Assembly: GCA_963677595.1 (NCBI GenBank)
Contig: OY782041.1
Coordinates: 3,040,001-3,104,000, forward strand
DNA length: 64,000 nucleotides
Direction: 5' to 3'
Source: Spirochaetia bacterium
GTDB taxonomy: Bacteria; Spirochaetota; Spirochaetia; CAKZLE01
Shown: piece by piece, positions 19,749-64,000 of the stretch
Layout: each line of letters starts with the position of its first letter
How positions within the stretch are numbered: the stretch's first letter is position 1
Notes under the pieces: generated by a model
Told to the model about the DNA's origin: nothing
Database searches by the model: none
The model's input: the letters and a program-made list of their open reading frames with translations, nothing else
Position numbers and translations under genes: made by a program

Positions 19749-21045
19749 GGAACTGTGCATAAATAACATAAGCAATATTGATTTCTTTGTCTTCTCATGA
19801 TAGAATGGTGCATGCTCGATGAGATAACGATAAAACGCATACATACCATAGTTCCTCTACTAGATGAGAGTCAGAAACGTAAATATCTTGCAGCTGAGGC
19901 TGAGAGTATTGGTCGCGGAGGGATTACCCAGATCAGTAAAGCGCTTGGTGTTTCTCGTAATACCATTGCTGCCGGGATCAAGGAGATCAGGGAACCTGTT
20001 GATCCAAGATCTTCAACCAGGATTCGGAAGGAAGGTGGTGGCCGCAAGCCAATAGAAGAGACGCAACCTGGCATCACGAAGGCGTTAGAAGCCCTGGTTG
20101 CTGACAGCAGTTTCGGTAATCCGGAATCACCACTGCTGTGGACGACAAAAAGTCTAAGGAACCTGAGTGACGCCCTCGGTAAACAGGGCTTTCAGGTCTC
20201 GTTTTCCAAGGTCAGGCAGATGCTTTCCGACTTGGGCTACAGCATGCAGCTAAACCAGAAGATGCTGCAGGTCGGGAAGCCCCATCCTGACCGGGATGAG
20301 CAATTTCAGCATATCAACGAGATGGCTAAAGGATTCATAGCAGAAGGGTTACCAGTGATCTCTATTGATTGTAAAAAGAAAGAGCTGGTGGGTAATTTCA
20401 AGAATCAGGGTGCAGAGTATGCTAAATCAGGGAATCCGGTGAAAGTCCTTGATCACGACTTTCCGCTGCCTGATCTTGGGAAGGTTGCACCGTATGGGAT
20501 CTATGATATAGCGAAGAATGAAGGATTCATCAATCTTGGGGTCAGCTCAGACACGGCAAAGTTTGCGGTGAATTCTATCCGGGAATGGTGGGATGAGATG
20601 GGCAAAAGTCGGTACCCTTCAGCATCAAAGCTCTACATCACCGCAGACGGTGGTGGGAGTAACGGGAGCAGGAACAGACTCTGGAAGACCGAACTGCAGG
20701 AACTGGCGAATGAAACGGGATTGCAGATCTATGTCTCCCATTTCCCACCGGGAACTTCAAAGTGGAATAAGATCGAACATCGAATGTTTAGCTACATCTC
20801 AAAGAATTGGAGGGGAAGACCCCTTGAAACCCTCCTTGTCATAATCAGTCTGATTGAGTCAACAACGACCGAATCAGGATTGAAGATACAATGCGAATTG
20901 GATCAGAACATCTATGAGACAGGGATAAAGGTATCAGCTGAAGAACTTGAGAGGATCAATATTACGAGGAATGAATTTCATGGAGAATGGAATTACTGCA
21001 TTGCTCCATCAGAAACATTCGCATAGATTATTTATACACAGATCC
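19749..21045 (+). mobile_element. ISAzo13-family insertion sequence (1297 bp)
   Basis: Terminal inverted repeats GGAACTGTGCATAAATAA and (reverse complement) GGATCTGTGTATAAATAA, 16/18 identical. TTA duplication at 19746-19748 and 21046-21048. Confidence 0.92.
19797..21026 (+). CDS. ISAzo13 family DDE transposase
   Basis: GGGRK, HPDRDEQF, ISIDCKKKE, ADGGGSNG, PPGTSKWNKIEHR, FHGEWNY motifs. Confidence 0.93.
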   Translation: MIEWCMLDEITIKRIHTIVPLLDESQKRKYLAAEAESIGRGGITQISKALGVSRNTIAAGIKEIREPVDPRSSTRIRKEGGGRKPIEETQPGITKALEALVADSSFGNPESPLLWTTKSLRNLSDALGKQGFQVSFSKVRQMLSDLGYSMQLNQKMLQVGKPHPDRDEQFQHINEMAKGFIAEGLPVISIDCKKKELVGNFKNQGAEYAKSGNPVKVLDHDFPLPDLGKVAPYGIYDIAKNEGFINLGVSSDTAKFAVNSIREWWDEMGKSRYPSASKLYITADGGGSNGSRNRLWKTELQELANETGLQIYVSHFPPGTSKWNKIEHRMFSYISKNWRGRPLETLLVIISLIESTTTESGLKIQCELDQNIYETGIKVSAEELERINITRNEFHGEWNYCIAPSETFA

Positions 21046-54364: not shown

Positions 54365-56125
54365 GTGACACAGATGCATAACAAAAAGTTAGTCGTAGTC
54401 CCGGTAGTGTTGATAGTCTTGATGATGCTGCTCTCCTGCAGCATGGGAGATCCGGTCGACCCGGTCGACCCAGTGCGGGCAGCATTGGAAGAAATGATAG
54501 CGAACGGAGAGGATGTCACCACATTCGACACATCAGCGATCACTGATATGTCGTACCTGTTTAACAACAAGAGCACCTTTAACCAGGACATCTCAGGCTG
54601 GGATGTCAGCAATGTCACCGACATGACTGGGATGTTCTTTGGGGCTTCCTCCTTCGATCAGGATATATCATCCTGGGATGTGGGCAATGTCACCGATATG
54701 ACCTATATGTTCTATAACGCAAGAGCCTTCAACCAGGACCTGACAGGCTGGGATGTAGGCAGTGTCACTACGATGAACAATATGTTCGGCTATGCGACCG
54801 CCTTCAATGGCGATATATCAGGATGGAATGTAAGCAGCGTGACCGATATGACTGCCATGTTCTATGGAGCTTCAGCCTTCAACGGGGATATATCATCCTG
54901 GGATGTGAGTAATGTCACTACGATGAGCAGTATGTTCGTCAATGCTGATAGCTTCAACCAGGACCTGCATACCTGGGATGTGAGCCATGTCACCGATATG
55001 AACGCCATGTTCTATTTGGCAGATACCTTCAACGGCGATATAACAGGCTGGGATGTCAGCAGTGTCGGGGACATGGGGTATATGTTCAGCAGTGCACCAG
55101 CCTTTGACCAGGATATATCATCCTGGGATGTAAGCAGTGTCACCAGCATGACTGCCATGTTTAAGCAGGCAACTGCCTTCAACCAGGGCTTACATACCTG
55201 GGATGTCGGCAGTGTCCAGACCATGGCAGGCATGTTCGAAGGGGCAGCTGCCTTCAATGGGAATATATCCACCTGGGATGTGGCACAGGTCACCGACATG
55301 AGCAGGATATTCTCTGGTGCTTCTGTGTTCAATGGCGATATCTCAGCCTGGGACGTCAGCCAGGTCACGAACATGACAACTATGTTCTGTAATGCAGCTG
55401 CCTTCAACCAGGACTTGAATGGCTGGAACGTAGGCAGTGTTACCAACATGAGTTCCATGTTCAGCGGTGCCGCTGTGTTCAACGGCAATATATCCAGCTG
55501 GAATACAGGCAGTGTAACTGCCATGAATACCATGTTCGATTCTGCTGTTGTATTCGACCAGGATATCTCAGGCTGGGATGTCAGTACGGTCACGAACATG
55601 AGTAGTATGTTCAAGGAAGCCAGAGCCTTCAACCAGGATATCTCAGATTGGAATGTCAGTAACGTCACGAACATAAGCGGCATGTTCAATGCGGCCACGT
55701 CCTTCAGCCAGGACCTGAATACCTGGGATGTGAGCCATGTCACCGACATGTCTTCCATGTTTGCAGGAGCATATGCCTTCAACGGGAACATCACCACCTG
55801 GGATATCAGCTGGGTCGGGAATATGAGCAAGATGTTCTCAGGAGCTACCACCTTCAACCAGGACATCTCAGTCTGGACTATTACCCGTGTCACGAATATG
55901 AGCGAGATGTTCCGGAATGCTACATCCTTCAACCAGGATGTATCAGTATGGCAGATCGGCAGTGTCAACGATGTGACCAGAATGTTCTCAGGTGCTACAT
56001 CCTTCAGCCAGGACCTCACCCCCTGGGCCGACTGTGTATTTGAGTATATCAGTCATTACGCCTTCGGTGAGAACAGTGGATTATCCACCGACCAATTCCC
56101 GTACTCAAGCTGGGCACAAACCTGA
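54365..56125 (+). CDS. DUF285/BspA-type repeat surface lipoprotein
   Basis: Lipobox LLSC; about 20 tandem 25-aa repeats FN[QG]DISxWDVSxVTxMxxMFxxA. Confidence 0.92.
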   Translation: MTQMHNKKLVVVPVVLIVLMMLLSCSMGDPVDPVDPVRAALEEMIANGEDVTTFDTSAITDMSYLFNNKSTFNQDISGWDVSNVTDMTGMFFGASSFDQDISSWDVGNVTDMTYMFYNARAFNQDLTGWDVGSVTTMNNMFGYATAFNGDISGWNVSSVTDMTAMFYGASAFNGDISSWDVSNVTTMSSMFVNADSFNQDLHTWDVSHVTDMNAMFYLADTFNGDITGWDVSSVGDMGYMFSSAPAFDQDISSWDVSSVTSMTAMFKQATAFNQGLHTWDVGSVQTMAGMFEGAAAFNGNISTWDVAQVTDMSRIFSGASVFNGDISAWDVSQVTNMTTMFCNAAAFNQDLNGWNVGSVTNMSSMFSGAAVFNGNISSWNTGSVTAMNTMFDSAVVFDQDISGWDVSTVTNMSSMFKEARAFNQDISDWNVSNVTNISGMFNAATSFSQDLNTWDVSHVTDMSSMFAGAYAFNGNITTWDISWVGNMSKMFSGATTFNQDISVWTITRVTNMSEMFRNATSFNQDVSVWQIGSVNDVTRMFSGATSFSQDLTPWADCVFEYISHYAFGENSGLSTDQFPYSSWAQT

Positions 56126-56250
56126 CCCATAAGTGACAGGATCCCAAGACAGTCCAGAGAGGCAGAAAGATACCCGCCCACCACACAAACCGAGAAGATG
56201 CATGCACCGCATCTCCTCGGCAGTAAAACCCTCACATAAGGGATAAGGGG

Positions 56251-56520
56251 ATAACAGACGATCCTCACCGGGTATCTCCTTAGATCCATGAAACTGCCCA
56301 AGCTCCCCATAACTATGAACATCATAACCGTCACGTTACAAAATAAGACCAATACACACAGAAGAGAGGTTGGGGAAGGGGGGAGAGCATAGTCTGCCGA
56401 CCCGGGAAGGCCACATCTGCAGATGTCGGGGGTTGACCACGGGGTGGTGGTGCGTCCAGAGCATAGCAGCTGGAAGTGAGGGGAAAGCTGGAAGGAAACC
56501 GGACCGCTGGAAGTGATGGG
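56251..56520 (+). repeat. Copy 2 of the diverged non-coding repeat
   Basis: Colinear similarity to 53581-53900, including GCTGGAAG units. Confidence 0.75.
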
Positions 56521-57034
56521 CCAGTAGTTCATTCAGGAAAGATTCAGACTTCATGCAGTGGCTTTCCCCCACTCCCTGGAACCGCATACCCGGAACGTGA
56601 TAACCCACAGAAGGGTAAAAAGCTTTTCTAAAACCGTTGAAGCAATACGAATTAATGCTAGTGAGGTTGTGGAAAGGTGCTTATCCCAGGGCACCGAGCT
56701 TGGTTGAAATCGACATGCTTCATTTGGTATTAGGATTGGTATACCCACATTATATATGTCCCACTACCCGATGATGGTATGTTTGGAGTAAAGATTTACC
56801 TTATCACGCAGTTAATTTTTACAAAACAGTAAGATCTGTCAAAATCGAGGAAATTTTTTTATGATTTTTGAGATTATGCTTGTAATGTGGGAGATGATGC
56901 GTTATGGTTGATTATAGTACTTGTACAACTTCAGGATGAACTAGAAAAGAGATCAACTGCATATCACCTGCTGGATCAACAGTAGGGATTAAAGGCTGAT
57001 TTTCTAACATGAATGCACCAAAAAGGAGTTGCGT

Positions 57035-57753
57035 ATGAGTGCTATAGGTCTTATCGGTGGTCTGAACATGGACCACGACATTTGGTTCTACCAAAACCTG
57101 ATCCACACAATCGAAGAAATAAGTGAGAACAGCCCTGCTATCTACCTGTTCGGGGGTGAGAACGGTATCTTCAGCAGTGCCAGGCACAGGACAACTATGC
57201 AAGTCTCGAAGATCATTATTCGAAGACTGTGATAACGGCTTTTCATACAGGTGTCGATCGCCTGATCATCATCAATGATCTCATGCACAGTAAGCTCCAT
57301 AAGATTACCGTAGGTGTTGGCGTCCCTGTAATATCCTTGACAGATGCCATCCAGGCATTCGCCCGTAAGGAGCAGATAGAGAGGATGGCAGTACTCTGCC
57401 ATTACTCTCCTGATCTGTATTCCCATTACCAGGGTGTCAAGGGCTGCCATATGGAGCTTTGCAACAGGGAAGAGGCTGCAGAGCTGAACACCCAGTTCTC
57501 AGGTTCCCCGAACCTCTTTGACGAATCACATACCAGCGTACAAATCATGCATGATATTCTCAGTCGCTGCAGGCAGGATGGGGTGAAGCATGTCCTGCTC
57601 ACCAGCCCTGAACTCGTCTACCTGCTACCCGAAGATACTGATGATCTGGCTATATACTGCAGTGACGAGATTCATATGCAGTACGCTGCAGAAGCCTGCC
57701 TGGCCTGCATGCAGCAGGACGTAAACACCAGTCACAACGTAAGGGCGCAGTAA
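57035..57753 (+). pseudogene. Frameshifted aspartate/glutamate-racemase-fold gene
   Basis: AAGGAG RBS; MSAIGLIGGL... in one frame continues as ...TGVDRLIIINDLMH...VPVISLTDA...GVKHVLLTSPEL in the -1 frame (open from 57160). Confidence 0.7.
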
Positions 57754-59620
57754 ATAGAGGTTTGGGATAACATAGGATGGAAAAGAACAACAGGAACATG
57801 ATGCAACAAGTCCTCAATACCCAGACAGTGGTGGTGTGTAGCCTAAACGTAGTAACCAACCTCGTAGAGGTTGAGGTGGGGAAAATCCACCGCGAATAGA
57901 TTTCTTTTTTTGTCCCTCCGGGCCCGCCCGGCGTATGACTACAACAAAAATAACATAAGTTCTGCTTGTTGGGCGGGTCCGTTATTTACCAGAGGGATGA
58001 GAGAGAAGAAGAGAAGGATATCAGCGATATCAATAACGAACGATACCGCTGATAATAGACCAGGAGATACAGCCTTGTTAAGGTTGTCGTGGCTTAGTAA
58101 TAGGTCACATATAGTATCCTCCATGTGTTTTCAAGGGCCTGCCCTGGCTTAACATAATCCTGATAAGAGTACTTACAGGGCGGGTCCGGTTCTTTCCGGA
58201 GAATGAAAACAGGAGGTCGAAGGTATGCTGCCGGAGGTCAGGGTACTGAGTTCTTAAGGCAGCAGGGATCGTAGCGGAAACGCTATGCCTCTGTTGTGGG
58301 AGTTAGCGTGAATCAGCCTTTTCAAGGCTGTTGTGATTCTTTGTAGATCACACATAGTTTACTCCATTTTTTCCGGACCCGCCCTGATTTTACACATTCT
58401 GAAGTTAGGGTACGTACGGGGTGGGTCCGGTTTCTTTCTCTCGAATATGTGATGCTGAGGAGGTATGAGAACAGGCTCTCTGGCAGACAGGGCGATGAAT
58501 AAATGAGGGCATTGGCCTTTTGTCAGGTGAAGAAGAGCTGTTGATATACAGGTGGTTCTTGTCTACAGGGGACCATCGGAATGGATGCTACAGATGAATT
58601 GCAGTATCCATTCTTGAGTCCGTCCCACTTCCATTGAGACGAGCGCATGTTTTACCAATGGGACGGGCTCTTCTTTCTTCATGTAATTCGTGATGTAAGC
58701 ATGATGCAGCTGTAGGGCTGGGATGTGTCATGTGTAAGATGATCAGCCTGAAAACAGGAGAGTTCCCGTTACGATCTTATATGATCACATACGGGATAAG
58801 GAGTGTAAGGTACATATGCATGCATACAGCAGGGGAGGACGATATCCCCGGAATATGTGTCTGAAGAGGATGCCGGAGAAATTCAGTTACCACTGATGAG
58901 TATCCTGAATATTGGAGTCGACCTCGTTGAGGCCGAGGTGGGAGATACCCACCACGTATAGATTTCTTTTTTGTCCCTCCGGGTCCGCCCGGCGTATATC
59001 AGAAACCAAAAACAAACGTTCTGCTAGTTGGGTGGACCCGTTATTTACTGGAGGGAAGAGAAAGAAAAGAAGGGAAGGGATATCAGCAGTACCTGTTGAG
59101 GATACTGCTGATGCATGAACAGGAGCTTACAGCTTTGGTAAGGCTGTAGTGACTTGTAGGTCACACATAGTTACTCTCCATTTTTCGAGCCCGCCCGATA
59201 TTGATCAACCTGCATTCGTGATACTTGCAGGGCGGGCTCGTTTTCTTACCGGAGCATACACTATGAAGGCAGGAGAACAGGCTCTTTGGCAATCAGGGCG
59301 ATGAATAGAATGAGGGCATTGGCCTTTTTGCCAGGTGAGGGAAGAGTCATATGAATATATAAGGTGGTCCGGCGATACCATATCGTGGGACCATCGGGGG
59401 TAGATCCAGGCGGGTATCCTCCTATGATGAAGCCTGCGAAATATCCTTTTGGGCCCGTCCCGTCCCCCTATTGAGACTAGCATATGCTTAACCCTCGGGA
59501 CGGGCCCATCTTCTTTTTCTACTGCATGCATACCATAGCTGCAGGGGTAGGGAGCAGATGGTAAAAACCTGCAGCATGGAAATGAGGAGTGATGAGGAAA
59601 GGCATAGATGGAGATAACAA

Positions 59621-59956
59621 ATGGTGAAGATAACCAGTGAACTTATGACATCTCTGTCAGGGTGCTCACGGGAAGAACTGAGCACCCTGGTAGAACAGGA
59701 CGGATATGATTACCTGAACTGCATGAAGGACTATATTCCCTCCTTCGAGCATATGAAGGAGAAGTTCTCCATCCTCGCATACCTGATCCTAGAAGACCGG
59801 ATGTATGCCTATAACCCGGATGTGCAGGAGCTGTACAGAAGACTGCTTGCGATCCAGGATGCGGCACAGGAGATCACCGATGCCCTGAAGGGCATTATCA
59901 CCCATGCCGACGTACTCACTGAAGCCCGGCTTCAGGAGCTGTCGGTGCATGAATAG
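59621..59956 (+). CDS. Small acidic helical hypothetical protein (array paralogue 1)
   Basis: GGAG RBS, 111 aa, amphipathic pattern, weak similarity to 60199 and 60930 ORFs. Confidence 0.7.
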   Translation: MVKITSELMTSLSGCSREELSTLVEQDGYDYLNCMKDYIPSFEHMKEKFSILAYLILEDRMYAYNPDVQELYRRLLAIQDAAQEITDALKGIITHADVLTEARLQELSVHE

Positions 59957-60198
59957 TTGAATACAGCCCTGTTAGGGCTGGGTAATACAATGTTTCCAAC
60001 CTTTGTTTCGGGCCTGCCCGAGAAAGCAAGTACCTGGAGTTATTGATCATCCGGGCAGGCTCGTTTCTTTAACAAGAGAGGAACGTGGAAACAATGAATG
60101 TAGAGTTGGTTAGATCGCAGGTGTCTGCGATCTAGAGGAACAGAGATGCCGTTGATACTCACACGATGCGTATCAGCGGATAGGGAAGAGTTGTGTGT

Positions 60199-60531
60199 AT
60201 GAAATTGGAATTGAGGACTGACTTTCAGTTACTGCAGGTAATGCAGTTGGAGGAACCCGAAAAGAATCTACAGGAAGAATTGGATCATGCAATGGAAGAT
60301 CTTAAAGATATGAGTGAGATCTATGACATGATGGTAGAGATGGTCACGAGTCTTGCGGTCCCGCAGAACGAAGAACAATCTTACGAATTCGATGAGGATA
60401 TGGATTATATATTCGAAAGCCTTGATGCCGTCTCACAGTTGACTTTGAAAGTCCGGTATGAGCTTGTAGACATCATACATGCAGCTTATAGGTTCAGTGC
60501 GTCTATGGCTAATAGAAATAGGTGCCAATAA
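60199..60531 (+). CDS. Small acidic helical hypothetical protein (array paralogue 2)
   Basis: Purine-rich RBS, 110 aa from ATG 60199, followed directly by an array hairpin. Confidence 0.7.
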   Translation: MKLELRTDFQLLQVMQLEEPEKNLQEELDHAMEDLKDMSEIYDMMVEMVTSLAVPQNEEQSYEFDEDMDYIFESLDAVSQLTLKVRYELVDIIHAAYRFSASMANRNRCQ

Positions 60532-60929
60532 ATATATGTGTAGTAACGGGTTCACCCGATCGTATGCCCGATTCTAAGAAAGTACAAGTATGTTGTTCAT
60601 ATCGGGTGAACCCGTTCTTCTTCTTGTGAAGGAATGGAAGGTAAAGGCTGAAGATATTATTTTTATGAATGAATGGAGGTGTATGTATAGAAGAACTGAA
60701 TCCTGTCGATGGATGGACCTGGGAACATATAGTCGGTCTGTCATTATGGAGAGGAATCACTTAGGGCCCGTTTCCGTCTAAACCTATTAAAAGTTGTACA
60801 AGGACACATAATGGGGACGGGCCTGTTTTTTAAGATTGCCTGGTCCTCTGTACCCTTGCTGCCGATACGGATCAACAGCGGTACATGGAGAGAGCAAATA
60901 GAGAAGAATATTAGTAGGAGTTAGGAAAT

Positions 60930-61250
60930 ATGAAGATCGATGCATTGATGTTGGCAAAATTACGTATTGAGCAAGCGAACGCTGTCGGTGGGAAGGTTAG
61001 TATCAAGGCAGGAAATACCCTTCAAAGTATGATATTTCTCCTGCCGCGCTGCGGCCGGGTAAATCAGTACGTAGGAGTACTCTCGGATTTGGTGTTCTCG
61101 AACCCTGAATTCGAGTGTGATACAGAAGCCCTGCAGCAGGAGCTGAATAAGAGCTTTGATGTTCTGCAGGTCGCAACCGATATGATGGATAATGCGCTGA
61201 CGAAGATTGAGACCCTGGCTGAACGTTATTTCGATCCTGAGCTGTTATAA
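60930..61250 (+). CDS. Small helical hypothetical protein (array paralogue 3)
   Basis: AGGAG/AGGA RBS, 106 aa, followed by an array hairpin. Confidence 0.7.
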   Translation: MKIDALMLAKLRIEQANAVGGKVSIKAGNTLQSMIFLLPRCGRVNQYVGVLSDLVFSNPEFECDTEALQQELNKSFDVLQVATDMMDNALTKIETLAERYFDPELL

Positions 61251-62806
61251 ACGATACCTCTATGAGGTTATCGTGTCCCTTCGGGTTTATCCGGTGAGAA
61301 CACCGTAGGACAGTCCGGTATGGAATCCGGATGAACCCGTTCTTTAGCGAACTACCAGCTTTGTTAAAGCTGAAGGAAACAAAAGAAGGAGAAAGGAGGT
61401 TCGAGCTGCTTTTAACCCTTCCCGGCAGATAGATCGAAGCTGTATATGAATCAGTCATCCTGCCGGGAGAGCGGATCCGATATATTCTATATAAGATGGC
61501 CCCTAACACCAAAATCGGGCCATCGGGAACAGATCAGGGATCGGGTATCTCCTTCCTCGACTCCTGGTCACTTTCTCCGGGCTCGTCCCACCCACCTTTA
61601 GTAAGTCTACCTTGCACACACCATATCCGGGACGAGCCCGTTCTTATTTTTTCATATTCCAGCCTTGTCAAGGCTGTTGATCATAACGTCTATGTGTAAG
61701 AAGGAGGGCATTGACTCACCCGGTAGGAAATATAAAACACAACATAAATGCAAAAATAAAATCCAAAGCATGACAATCGAAACGGGTGAGTTCCTACTGT
61801 TCCTGATGATCACCATATGCTGTATCAACACTGCTGATATCATCAGGAGCGCTACCTTTGTTCAAGAGGTTGAGAGACCTCTTGGAACAACATGATTGTT
61901 CTATGCTTGGGCCCGCCCCTGTTACCCCCCCCCATTCAAGGTAACGAATTTCCTTTCACGCTGGGGCGGGCCCTTCTTCTTCCCTGTGAACAATGATCTT
62001 TGTCCGAAACCAGATTGCACACTGATTGCCTGCATTGGTGTTCCTGATTGTTGCGGTATGATGCCCATGATTGCTGCCCTATACCGGCAGATCCTTATCT
62101 CGGTGTACTATAACAATACAGGGTGTAAGGTTTTTCTCAAAAATAAATAAATGATAAATTAAAACACAGTGAATGCTTATATGAAAGATAGCATACTACA
62201 TAATTCGTGAGTAATGGGTTGATAAGTGACCAAAATTCCTGTACTATGCTTGCAAGATATTCAAGAAAGTGGTGTGGGACTAAAAGTATTGAATGCTCGC
62301 TCATATCGTGTATCTTGGTATCGCGTTTAAGGGCTGCTGTGATAGTTGGTGTATGTTGCAGCGATTAGACTGATATAAGGGTGGGGGTGTGCAGTCGGGC
62401 GTTTCTTCGAAGTGTAACTTTAAGCTCGTTCATGAGTTTAACTTTATAAGGCTAGGGGAGAATCCATGCTTGGTGTGATGCATAACATAGTCAGGTATAA
62501 TACTGGTGGCTTGTATATAGTAGGGAACGTGTTACAAAACTCAAGTAGAGAAGTGCCAGGTACTTCTGTTCTTGTGTAGCCACGTCATAGCCGCAGATAT
62601 CATACCCGATCCTTATCCGGCAACAGTTTAACTAGAACCCCCTTGAATGAAACACGAGATGTGTGTCGAGTAAGTTTCGGCGACCGGCATGCATAGTAGT
62701 GCCTCAACAAGTGGAGCAGTTGCCTGGTTTTTCATCAAAAATGGGGTTCTGCACTAGCGAAGCTTTGCGGTAATATGGGGTCTGCTGCTCTCGCTTAAGT
62801 AGTATG

Positions 62807-62815
62807 TGCTATAAT
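62807..62815 (+). promoter_or_regulatory. Extended -10 promoter element for the polysaccharide gene
   Basis: TGCTATAAT about 60 nt upstream of ATG 62876. Confidence 0.5.
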
Positions 62816-62875
62816 GTAGCAACACGGCTGCGAAGCGAGAATGAGTAATGCAACAAAAAGTGTAAAGGGTTAAGT

Positions 62876-64000
62876 ATGAAATTCAAGCTGAGAAGATTGC
62901 GTAAGTACCTGCTTCTTGTCCTTGCTGATATCATCCTGCTGCTTGCATCCTGGGAGCTGGCCTACTATATTCGCGACCAGCATCTCTGGAACATACACTC
63001 CGGAGCCCCGGCTCTCTGGGCAGTCCTTGTCTGTGTTGCCGTACAGATCGCGGCTTTCTCCTTCACTAAGTTATATAGAATATCCTTACGGCAGGTTTCC
63101 CTGGAACTCATCTACCAGGCGGGTATCCCACTGGTTATCGGGGCATTCTGCTCGTTAGTACTTATGACCACCAAGTCCGGTGACGGGTTCAATGCCCTCC
63201 AGCTGCTTATCCCGTACTGGGCCTTCAGTATCCTTACCATTATCGCCTACCGGGTCATCTTCCGGATCACCGGCGGTTATACCTTCCTTGATACCAACCA
63301 CATACATTGTCCAAGAACTCTTCTCTACGGCGCAGGCGAGGTTGCTGACCAGCTCATGCGTCTCTACCGCAAGGACATGCTCGAGTACAAGATCATGGGC
63401 CTCATCGATGATGACCGTAACAAGCATCACATGATGTTCCACGGCAAGGAAGTCTTCGGTGGTATCGAGGAACTCGCTGAGGCCATCATCAGGCATGACA
63501 TCAAGATGATCATCATCGCCTCGATCAAGATCGGCAAGGACAAGATCAACGAGATCGTCGACATCGCGCACCAGCACGATGTCGAGGTGAAGATCGTCCC
63601 TTCGCTCTTCGAGATCACTGAGGACAAGCGTTCGGTAGCTGACATTCGGGACGTCAATATCGACGATCTTCTCGGACGTGACCAGGTAGAGGTCGACAAG
63701 GCCCCGATCATCGAGATGATCGAGGGTAAGACGGTGATGATCACAGGTGCCGGCGGCTCGATCGGCTCGGAGCTTGCCAAGCAGGCTACCGGGTTCAACC
63801 CCGAAAAGCTCATCATCCTTGATATCGACGAGACCGAGATCCATAACCTGTCATTGTCCTTGAACAACTATTCCACGGGCTTCAGCAATGATATCATTCC
63901 GGTCGTTTGTGATGTCCGGGACAAAGATAAACTCGATTCCATTATAGAGAAGTATAAACCGCAGATCATCTACCATGCTGCAGCCTACAAGCATGTTCCC
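62876..64000 (+). CDS. CapD/WbpM/PglF-type membrane-anchored NDP-sugar 4,6-dehydratase (partial; absent from the ORF track because it has no stop in the window)
   Basis: MKFKLRRLRKYLLLVLAD..., N-terminal transmembrane helices, LYGAGE, IDDD, IDDLLGR, ITGAGGSIGSEL, HAAAYKHVP. Confidence 0.95.
   Translation, partial: MKFKLRRLRKYLLLVLADIILLLASWELAYYIRDQHLWNIHSGAPALWAVLVCVAVQIAAFSFTKLYRISLRQVSLELIYQAGIPLVIGAFCSLVLMTTKSGDGFNALQLLIPYWAFSILTIIAYRVIFRITGGYTFLDTNHIHCPRTLLYGAGEVADQLMRLYRKDMLEYKIMGLIDDDRNKHHMMFHGKEVFGGIEELAEAIIRHDIKMIIIASIKIGKDKINEIVDIAHQHDVEVKIVPSLFEITEDKRSVADIRDVNIDDLLGRDQVEVDKAPIIEMIEGKTVMITGAGGSIGSELAKQATGFNPEKLIILDIDETEIHNLSLSLNNYSTGFSNDIIPVVCDVRDKDKLDSIIEKYKPQIIYHAAAYKHVP

What the first reader, a model, noticed from the sequence alone, without database searches (positions are those of the whole stretch)
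57859..61985. Array of about 14 conserved-stem, variable-loop RNA hairpins: candidate undescribed ncRNA or guide array
Seen: across 4.1 kb of mostly non-coding DNA, a GC stem (5' arm like cGGGYYYGYCC, 10-16 bp) recurs roughly every 135-560 nt, always in the same orientation and followed by a pyrimidine tail (often GTTCTT). Loops are unusually long and mostly similar in size (35, 29, 30, 31, 33, 33, 33, 31, 40, 33, 32, 39, 60, 43 nt) but unrelated in sequence except between duplicated units. Known: intrinsic terminators typically have loops under about 10 nt, and CRISPR spacers lie between repeats, not inside the stem. Inference: each stem displays a ~30-40 nt single-stranded sequence, as expected for a bank of antisense/guide RNAs or protein decoys. 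I recognise no described family with this layout.
Basis: partly seen in the sequence, partly recalled or inferred. Interest (0 to 1): 0.9.

Follow-up and report, generated by a model that had tools for sequence, protein, structure and literature searches.

The report
Long-loop RNA hairpin cassette array
A 4-kb island holds 13 related GC-rich hairpins with open 29-43-base loops, found nowhere else in this genome or in the collections searched, and likely yields a family of folded small RNAs and three short mRNAs whose loops are likely inherited by duplication, not captured as guides.

Summary
Thirteen related stems (11-16 bp, loops 29-43 nt, broken U tails) and one unlike hairpin lie on the + strand at 57919-61973. 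They are 9 of the genome's 13 strong long-loop T-tailed hairpins; ordinary terminators here have short loops. Stems covary and show G-U but no A-C pairs. Eight of 14 spacer segments are themselves structured, and sequence before each stem tends to pair with sequence beyond its tail, which suggests read-through RNA. Three units carry orphan acidic ORFs. Related strains keep the hairpins but swap the segments between them.

The guide-bank reading is unsupported: loops of duplicated units are mostly homologous, change by point mutation between strains, and match nothing beyond chance in the host genome, phages or plasmids. It fails the stem-loop TIGR, CRISPR and integron tests; Rfam has no match. 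No homologous array was found in 400 same-class genomes, GTDB, JGI metagenomes or IMG/VR.

Best reading (0.5): a duplication-and-exchange array of sibling structured RNAs and short mRNAs, punctuated by leaky terminator or processing stems. Expression is untested. The scan noted a similar layout on other DNA before (e1-6041697, unchecked).

The parts
57919..57981 (+). h1: 15-bp stem, 33-nt loop; type A unit (57754-57989); duplicate of h5
58135..58187 (+). h2: 12-bp stem, 29-nt loop; type B unit (57990-58195)
58373..58430 (+). h3: 14-bp stem, 30-nt loop; type B unit (58196-58438)
58616..58670 (+). h4: 12-bp stem, 31-nt loop; type C unit (58439-58678)
58980..59040 (+). h5: 14-bp stem, 33-nt loop; type A unit
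59186..59240 (+). h6: 11-bp stem, 33-nt loop; type B unit (59049-59248)
59450..59508 (+). h7: 13-bp stem, 33-nt loop; type C unit (59249-59516)
59621..59956 (+). Orphan ORF, 111 aa, pI 4.6, predicted all-helical; its 3' end and trailer align with the ORF-less B units
   Evidence: 9 of 15 strain substitutions at third codon positions and a 24-nt in-frame deletion
60009..60063 (+). h8: 12-bp stem, 31-nt loop
60199..60531 (+). Orphan ORF, 110 aa, pI 4.2; its unit is replaced by other sequence in one related strain
60545..60616 (+). h9: 16-bp stem, 40-nt loop
60764..60824 (+). h10: 14-bp stem, 33-nt loop
60930..61250 (+). Orphan ORF, 106 aa, pI 4.6; mostly replaced or diverged in the strain of runs X2/X3
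61282..61339 (+). h11: 13-bp stem, 32-nt loop; the only unit with a symmetric box-9 nt-box layout
61419..61469 (+).
61578..61640 (+). h12: 12-bp stem, 39-nt loop; type C-like unit
61713..61792 (+). h13: 10-bp stem, 60-nt loop, weak tail; not of the stem family
61909..61973 (+). h14: 11-bp all-GC stem, 43-nt loop; last unit
58070..61676 (+). Second repeated motif: 7-bp triloop hairpin (CAGCYYU-NNN-ARRGYUG) at 58070, 58314, 59130, 59964, 61356, 61660; three further sites in the rest of the genome
57859..59516 (+). Block duplication: 57859-58204 is like 58921-59257, and 58324-58537 is like 59140-59346, each 73% identical

Best explanation
This is a tandem array of 13 related hairpin-ended units that grew by duplication and differs between strains, and it likely is transcribed on the + strand as a read-through RNA that is partly terminated or cut at each stem, releasing predicted 150-560-nt RNAs: about ten folded non-coding siblings and three mRNAs for small acidic proteins. 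Shown: the hairpin family, its covariation and strand bias, structured spacer segments, duplications, ORF-bearing and ORF-less versions of one unit type, and strain-level replacement of segments between kept hairpins. Inferred: (1) transcription, from an upstream promoter, since none lies in register inside the units; (2) each GC stem with its short broken U tail acts as a leaky terminator and 3'-protecting or processing mark, and the helix across the tail would form only in read-through RNA and could present a cleavage site; (3) the open loops are exposed contact surfaces, most likely short pairing seeds as in RepG, that are inherited with the unit and then diverge; (4) units are exchanged by homologous recombination at the conserved hairpins.
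For: Covariation: 96.8% of 156 cells paired, 9 of 12 pairs with two-sided changes, 24 such cells against 8.3 in shuffles. 11 G-U and 0 A-C among 130 core pairs; 45 transitions and 0 transversions. Spacer segments: z at or below -2.5 in 8 of 14; + strand folds better in 9 of 11 non-coding stretches; inner hairpins of the three B units keep pairing through changes. Cognate pairing across the tail: permutation p 1e-4 to 9e-3, 0.001-0.013 with one unit per duplicate family, stronger than all 25 random-position controls for the one window size compared. Tails are weak: longest U run 2-6, none of 14 fits GS(N7)RY (motif from bioRxiv 10.64898/2026.05.29.728758, passages). Descent: loop identity 72, 60, 56 and 50% in four duplicate pairs against a 34% median. 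Strains: 5 changes in loop 8 while its stem gains a G-C for a G-U; joints at 60091-60593, 60622-61089 and 61136-61275 end at or near hairpins. RNase III is encoded in the genome.
Against: No expression data. No target or partner found for any loop, so step 3 is the weakest. The stems were chosen because they pair and the copies are related, which inflates covariation counts. Several segments fold as well on the - strand by z-score, and the + strand is G-rich. Six of 14 segments are not notably structured. Cross-tail pairing fades when h1, h5 and h2 are dropped (p 0.015-0.31) and is absent at h9, h11 and h12. Three other duplicate pairs show loop identity no better than chance (35, 44, 31%). 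Two strain changes break a terminal pair (60559 in h9, 59980 in a triloop hairpin). The strain joints come from metagenome contigs laid at 80% likeness, some at depth 2-5, and could simply mark where divergent alleles lose alignment.
Confidence: 0.5

Rival explanations
1. Decayed gene-cassette island: each hairpin is just a lineage-specific terminator behind a small gene, and the ORF-less units are remains of cassettes that lost their ORF.
For: Three ORFs end 14-53 nt before a hairpin. The 3' end and trailer of the 111-aa ORF align with ORF-less B units, with an 8-nt identity at the matching place. SD-like purine tracts follow most tails.
Against: ORF-less segments are the most structured and keep pairing through changes. 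No conserved reading frame among duplicates was evident. Tails are weak. 128 of 199 downstream T-tailed hairpins in this genome have 3-8-nt loops.
Confidence: 0.18
2. Bank of guide RNAs for an RNA-guided protein encoded elsewhere, like stem-loop TIGR arrays but with diverged boxes, aimed at foreign DNA or RNA that is not in the databases.
For: The enclosed length of 29-43 nt fits the 28-43 nt implied by the stem-loop TIGR grammar. CUU lies at the 3' stem base in 10 of 14. h11 reads CGG-9 nt-CG twice. Phages of this host are probably missing from the collections.
Against: 6 of 14 pass my version of the grammar against 4.9 in shuffles, none with perfect boxes; 20% of shuffles match h11 as well. 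No Nop-domain hit in the genome. Split 8+8 target sites 43 against 38. CUU is expected in U/C-rich tails. Loops descend with their units.
Confidence: 0.12
3. Protein-binding RNA repeats acting as antitoxin or decoy for the small acidic proteins or another protein, as in type III toxin-antitoxin pseudo-repeats or CsrB.
For: Repeated stem and triloop motifs next to orphan ORFs. AGGAG occurs 19 times against 9.8 at the genome rate.
Against: ORFs match no Pfam or PADLOC family and PHROGs only weakly, best E 0.007. They are acidic and so unlikely RNA binders (inference). GGA is close to the genome rate (109 against 95) and does not sit in hairpin loops. No conserved short hydrophobic toxin ORF was seen on either strand.
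Confidence: 0.12
4. Single-stranded DNA recombination sites of an integron-like cassette array, or targets of a hairpin-seeking mobile element.
For: Strain joints end near hairpins; ORFs lie in one orientation, each followed by a hairpin; the 3' base often reads GTT.
Against: No integron integrase over the cut-off; the six tyrosine recombinase genes lie more than 600 kb away. The recalled attC cores are not met: tails are GTT plus pyrimidines and AAC opens only h9. The better-folding strand is the coding strand. No dispersed copies.
Confidence: 0.08

Closest known systems
Stem-loop TIGR arrays (PMC12045711, passages; bioRxiv 10.64898/2026.09.09.750476, parts 1-3 of 7 and passages)
   Same: Tandem same-strand stems each enclosing about 30-40 variable nt; CUU at the stem base in 10 of 14 units here; about 13 units in the published example.
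   Different: No conserved box C/D pair, no 9+9 dual spacers, no Tas (Nop) gene found; here the stem is conserved along its length, whereas TIGR stems diverge away from the boxes; units carry 60-500 nt of further structured or coding sequence.
Tandem sibling sRNA clusters: CcsR1-4 with DUF1127/CcaF1 (PMC8034643, abstract start and passages); LhrC (recalled; listing only)
   Same: Homologous structured RNAs in tandem beside small-protein genes; one-promoter co-transcription is known for CcsR and only inferred here.
   Different: Those siblings share a conserved loop seed (recalled); here loops diverge while stems are kept, every unit has its own stem and tail, and units are longer and swapped between strains.
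RepG sRNA of Helicobacter pylori (PMC8295292, passages)
   Same: A terminator-type hairpin whose loop is an exposed pairing surface.
   Different: RepG is a single conserved RNA with a C/U-rich loop and a known target; here there are 13 divergent, mostly A/U-rich loops and no target was found.
PeSL cassettes of T4-type phages (PMC2839356, abstract and section 13)
   Same: Repeated GC-rich stem-loops between orphan ORFs in a hypervariable region, with modules exchanged at the repeats.
   Different: No sigma-70 promoter in register; chromosomal, no phage genes seen beside it; most units lack an ORF; loops are long.
Intrinsic terminators (bioRxiv 10.64898/2026.05.29.728758, passages)
   Same: GC stem followed by a U-rich tail, on the coding strand, three of them just behind stop codons.
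   Different: Loops 29-43 nt against the 3-10 nt used to define terminators there; broken tails; pairing across the tail; one sequence family confined to 4 kb.

Membership tests
Stem-loop TIGR-Tas | Two box C-spacer-box D intervals inside each stem, boxes conserved across the array | tested here: not met
   My re-implementation of the published grammar: 6 of 14 pass relaxed phases against 4.9 in loop shuffles, 0 with perfect boxes, no shared box pair
Stem-loop TIGR-Tas | Adjacent Tas (Nop-domain) gene | tested here: not met
   PF01798: 0 hits in the 95% complete genome; neighbouring ORFs are 106-111 aa orphans; the IS110-type hits lie over 400 kb away. A divergent Tas could be missed by this profile.
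Stem-loop TIGR-Tas | Two spacers pairing with opposite strands of one DNA target | tested here: inconclusive
   Own genome only, 13 of 14 loops: 43 split 8+8 sites against 38 in shuffles; foreign targets not testable
Stem-loop TIGR-Tas | CUU at the stem base | tested here: inconclusive
   Present 3' of the stem in 10 of 14, but expected in U/C-rich tails; no control run
CRISPR array | Near-identical repeats separated by unrelated, acquired spacers; cas genes nearby | tested here: not met
   Variable part lies inside the stem; four duplicate loop pairs 50-72% identical; cas1 about 2.7 Mb away; no protospacer
Integron attC array | IntI integrase; RYYYAAC and GTTRRRY cores; bottom-strand folding (features recalled) | tested here: not met
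   TIGR02249 below cut-off; cores absent in the sequence; the coding strand folds better
Intrinsic terminator | GC stem followed by a U-rich tract | tested here: met
   5-6 T in the 8 nt after the stem in 13 of 14
Intrinsic terminator | Short loop (3-10 nt) and GS(N7)RY edge motif of strong terminators | tested here: not met
   Loops 29-60 nt; 0 of 14 with the motif; longest U run 2-6
Intrinsic terminator | Transcript release at the tail | not testable with these tools
   Needs Term-seq or in vitro transcription
PeSL cassette | Sigma-70 promoter joined to each stem-loop | tested here: not met
   8 promoter-like sites against 11.5 in shuffles; none in common register
PeSL cassette | Module exchange at the repeats | tested here: inconclusive
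   Strain joints near hairpins, sequence between them not seen
Sibling sRNA cluster (CcsR/LhrC kind) | Homologous structured units in tandem | tested here: met
Sibling sRNA cluster (CcsR/LhrC kind) | Shared conserved loop seed | tested here: not met
   Median loop identity 34% against 32% shuffled; no invariant loop column
Sibling sRNA cluster (CcsR/LhrC kind) | Expression and processing into discrete RNAs | not testable with these tools
   Needs RNA data for this organism
Any Rfam 15 family | Covariance-model match | tested here: not met
   0 at gathering score in the window; best E = 4 in 56100-62900

The most novel reading that the evidence does not exclude
The array is the guide bank of an undescribed RNA-guided system: each conserved stem is a handle for an effector encoded elsewhere, each 30-40-nt loop is a guide that diversifies by duplication and mutation and aims at mobile elements not yet sequenced, and the small acidic proteins are its regulators.
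Probability: 0.12. Interest if true: 0.92.

Novelty: new variant of a known kind. Interest (0 to 1): 0.55.

Why it matters
If the RNAs are made, this is a compact, fast-evolving family of structured RNAs in which stems are conserved and loops diverge, the reverse of known sibling sRNA clusters. It would show small RNAs and short orphan genes interconverting inside one cassette type, and give 13 natural constructs for testing whether stems with 30-40-nt loops terminate or mark processing. If the loops prove to be guides, it would be a new RNA-guided system. The limits are that it was found in one species only and that no expression or target is known.

Tried and rejected
Homologous arrays elsewhere, none found: blastn in 40 relatives (only a leader near 62669-62778 and the next gene's start matched, in G001); model R2 in 5 family genomes (one weak single hit in G002, by my reading inside a coding sequence) and 149 class genomes (3 weak single hits; at most 29 candidates scored per genome); pattern in 400 class genomes (40 with 1-3 scattered matches); GTDB scan, 22 single matches; JGI metagenomes, 12 single matches; IMG/VR, 0, 7 and 8 single matches for three patterns. 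These patterns fit only part of the family (5 of 13 hairpins for the main one), so arrays with other stem sequences would be missed. Syntenic regions of G001 and G005 lack the array; the neighbour gene was not found in G002-G004. Targets: longest exact loop match in the genome 11-15 nt against shuffle means of 12.5-13.9; phages and plasmids, best E 1 and 0.03; translation-start regions of 3640 roughly predicted genes, 2 of 14 loops beat all 8 shuffles, as chance predicts; no loop-to-own-unit or loop-loop pattern. Promoters in loops: none in register. tRNA/tmRNA: none. Proteins: only a strain variant of the 111-aa ORF; none for the 106-aa ORF; two short low-complexity-like hits for the 110-aa ORF; the 111-aa model (pLDDT 73, single sequence) had no fold match at E 0.001; the 106-aa ORF was not folded. 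A suspected likeness to a 93-aa ORF at the same site in G001 was not confirmed. A short peptide in type A units was considered and dropped: no start in the second copy. Model R1 and one search used a wrong register and were discarded; stem identities had shifted anchors and were redone. No RNA holder listed among public runs. Literature: searches listed no paper whose title or abstract start describes such an array; the library lacks most subscription journals, and the bioRxiv supplements (TIGR array tables) could not be seen.
Full report
OBSERVATION. Thirteen align into one stem family. In the right register 96.8% of 156 cells pair and 9 of 12 pairs show two-sided changes. The hairpins were picked because they pair and are related, so these counts are inflated. 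Less circular: among 130 core pairs 11 are G-U and none is A-C, and all 45 departures from consensus are transitions, which points to a single strand reading as the + strand. The 60-nt hairpin h13 has another stem and a weak tail and was left out of the family.

NOT THE ORDINARY TERMINATOR. Of 396 strong hairpins in the 4.33-Mb genome, 13 have a 25-65-nt loop and a T-rich tail, and 9 of these lie in this 4 kb. Behind 3640 roughly predicted genes I found 199 T-tailed hairpins: 128 with loops of 3-8 nt and 13 with loops of 25 nt or more, of other sequence. A covariance model of the family hits only its own 13 training copies in the genome, and blastn finds no second copy. Rfam gives nothing.

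ANATOMY BEYOND THE FINDING. The segments between the hairpins are repeated and folded. Two blocks are 73% identical duplicates, giving unit types A (h1, h5), B (h2, h3, h6) and C (h4, h7, more distantly h12). Eight of 14 segments have z-scores of -2.5 or lower on the + strand and six do not; several score as well on the - strand. In the three B units two inner hairpins keep their pairing through one- and two-sided changes. A 7-bp triloop hairpin occurs six times here and three times in the rest of the genome, by a pattern that required pairing. Three units carry ORFs of 111, 110 and 106 aa with pI 4.2-4.6 and no relative beyond one strain variant. The end and trailer of the 111-aa ORF align with the ORF-less B units, so ORF-bearing and ORF-less forms of one unit exist; the direction of change cannot be told. 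Upstream lies a split racemase-like gene, downstream a polysaccharide-biosynthesis gene. The same site in G001 and G005 has other genes and no array.

READ-THROUGH. Sequence just 5' of each stem pairs better with sequence beyond its own tail than with that beyond other tails (permutation p 1e-4 to 9e-3 over three window sizes). This holds with one unit per duplicate family (p 0.001-0.013) and exceeds all 25 random-position controls for the one window size compared, but fades when h1, h5 and h2 are removed (p 0.015-0.31) and is absent at h9, h11 and h12. Such a helix can form only in RNA that has passed the tail. The tails are weak: longest U run 2-6, and none of 14 fits the GS(N7)RY motif of strong terminators (motif from passages of bioRxiv 10.64898/2026.05.29.728758, derived from E. 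coli and B. subtilis terminators). No promoter lies in register within the units; two candidates lie at 56818-56865. I infer one upstream promoter, leaky termination and processing. RNase III is present, but its role is a guess.

STRAINS. Three public runs from two studies hold the stretch in whole or part; X1 may be the source of this assembly and X2 and X3 are one sample. Laid on 56500-62100 at 80% likeness (40 of 300 substitutions and 12 of 45 indels shown), they show a second strain in X1 and another in X2/X3, whose listed pieces at roughly 88-99% identity cover most hairpins, so the array is not an assembly artefact. On one X2 contig (37 of 41 substitutions shown) loop 8 has four substitutions and a 1-nt deletion in 31 nt and loop 9 two in 40 nt. 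The h8 stem gains G-C for G-U; one inner pair of h9 and a terminal pair of a triloop hairpin break. The 111-aa ORF has 15 substitutions, 9 at third positions, and a 24-nt in-frame deletion in the X1 strain, so it likely is a real gene. Joints at 60091-60593 (X1, depth 30), 60622-61089 and 61136-61275 (X2/X3, depth 4) show segments replaced by unseen sequence of similar length, ending at or near hairpins. The tool warns that such joints can come from other organisms or repeats.

ARE THE LOOPS GUIDES? Loops of four duplicate pairs are 72, 60, 56 and 50% identical against a median of 34% for all pairs and 32% (maximum 51%) for shuffles; three other duplicate pairs are at chance level (the intervals include a few inner stem bases). 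With the strain data this fits descent with drift and not spacer capture. No loop matches the rest of the genome better than shuffles, nor phages or plasmids, nor translation-start regions (2 of 14 beat 8 shuffles), nor other parts of the array in any pattern. Short seed pairing and unsequenced foreign targets are not excluded.

CLOSEST DESCRIBED LAYOUT. Stem-loop TIGR arrays (PMC12045711, passages; bioRxiv 10.64898/2026.09.09.750476, parts 1-3 of 7 and passages) enclose two box C-spacer-box D intervals, 28-43 nt in all, and are processed at a CUU at the stem base. The size fits and CUU follows 10 of 14 stems. But my re-implementation of the grammar passes 6 of 14 hairpins against 4.9 in shuffles, none with perfect boxes; only h11 is symmetric and 20% of its shuffles do as well. 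No Nop domain was found, the IS110-type genes lie far away, and split targets number 43 against 38. It is not a member. CRISPR, integron and PeSL fail on defining features. It works most like a sibling sRNA cluster co-transcribed with small-protein genes (CcsR, PMC8034643, passages), with RepG-like open terminator loops (PMC8295292, passages) and PeSL-like module exchange (PMC2839356, abstract and one section), but differs from each.

DISTRIBUTION. No homologous array was found in 5 family genomes, 149-400 class genomes, GTDB, JGI metagenomes or IMG/VR; all matches were isolated singles. These searches depend on stem sequence. An unchecked note of this scan (e1-6041697) reports five GC stems with 24-64-nt loops and U runs in a prophage of another genome, so the layout may recur without shared sequence. 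Literature searches listed no paper on such an array.

VERDICT. The feature is real, under RNA-level selection and without described relatives. The best reading is an array of sibling structured RNAs and short mRNAs punctuated by leaky terminator or processing stems (0.5). Rivals are a decayed gene-cassette island (0.18), a guide bank (0.12), antitoxin or decoy repeats (0.12) and DNA recombination sites (0.08). Novelty: new variant of a known kind. Interest 0.55: strange and testable, but seen in one species and with no expression or target evidence.

Noticed in passing
window 62665-62780; L005 16240-16350; L088 10370-10480: A conserved non-coding stretch of about 110 nt upstream of the polysaccharide-biosynthesis gene in G000, G001 and G005, with no Rfam match; a candidate leader or antitermination element.
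   Followed up: partly
window 57035-57753: Asp/Glu racemase-like gene split into two overlapping frames, weak Pfam hit on the second part; a pseudogene or sequencing error directly upstream of the array.
   Followed up: no
G000:C1:57582-57638, - strand (outside the window): Terminator-like hairpin behind a gene with a 37-nt loop holding two CCUCCCUU anti-SD-like motifs; looks like a RepG- or cuckoo-type seed loop.
   Followed up: no
G000 genome-wide: Seven of 10 strong hairpins with a 16-nt loop have a T-rich tail, a peak that may be one repeated element.
   Followed up: no
window 54365-56125: DUF285 repeat lipoprotein with 75-nt repeats.
   Followed up: no
G000:C1 146095, 227180, 1663834, 2378092, 2594609, 2616260: Six IS110-family transposase genes; two of the three I translated are near-identical.
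   Followed up: partly
L005 15200-15481 (G001): An orphan 93-aa acidic ORF sits where G000 has the array; no detectable homology to the array ORFs.
   Followed up: partly
run X1 laid on window 56500-62100: Two strains of similar depth (about 36 and 30) are present in the run; the protein variant P0002 carries the same 8-residue deletion as the second strain.
   Followed up: partly
window 19797-21026: A 409-aa ORF that looks like a transposase (ISAzo13-like; label recalled, not tested).
   Followed up: no
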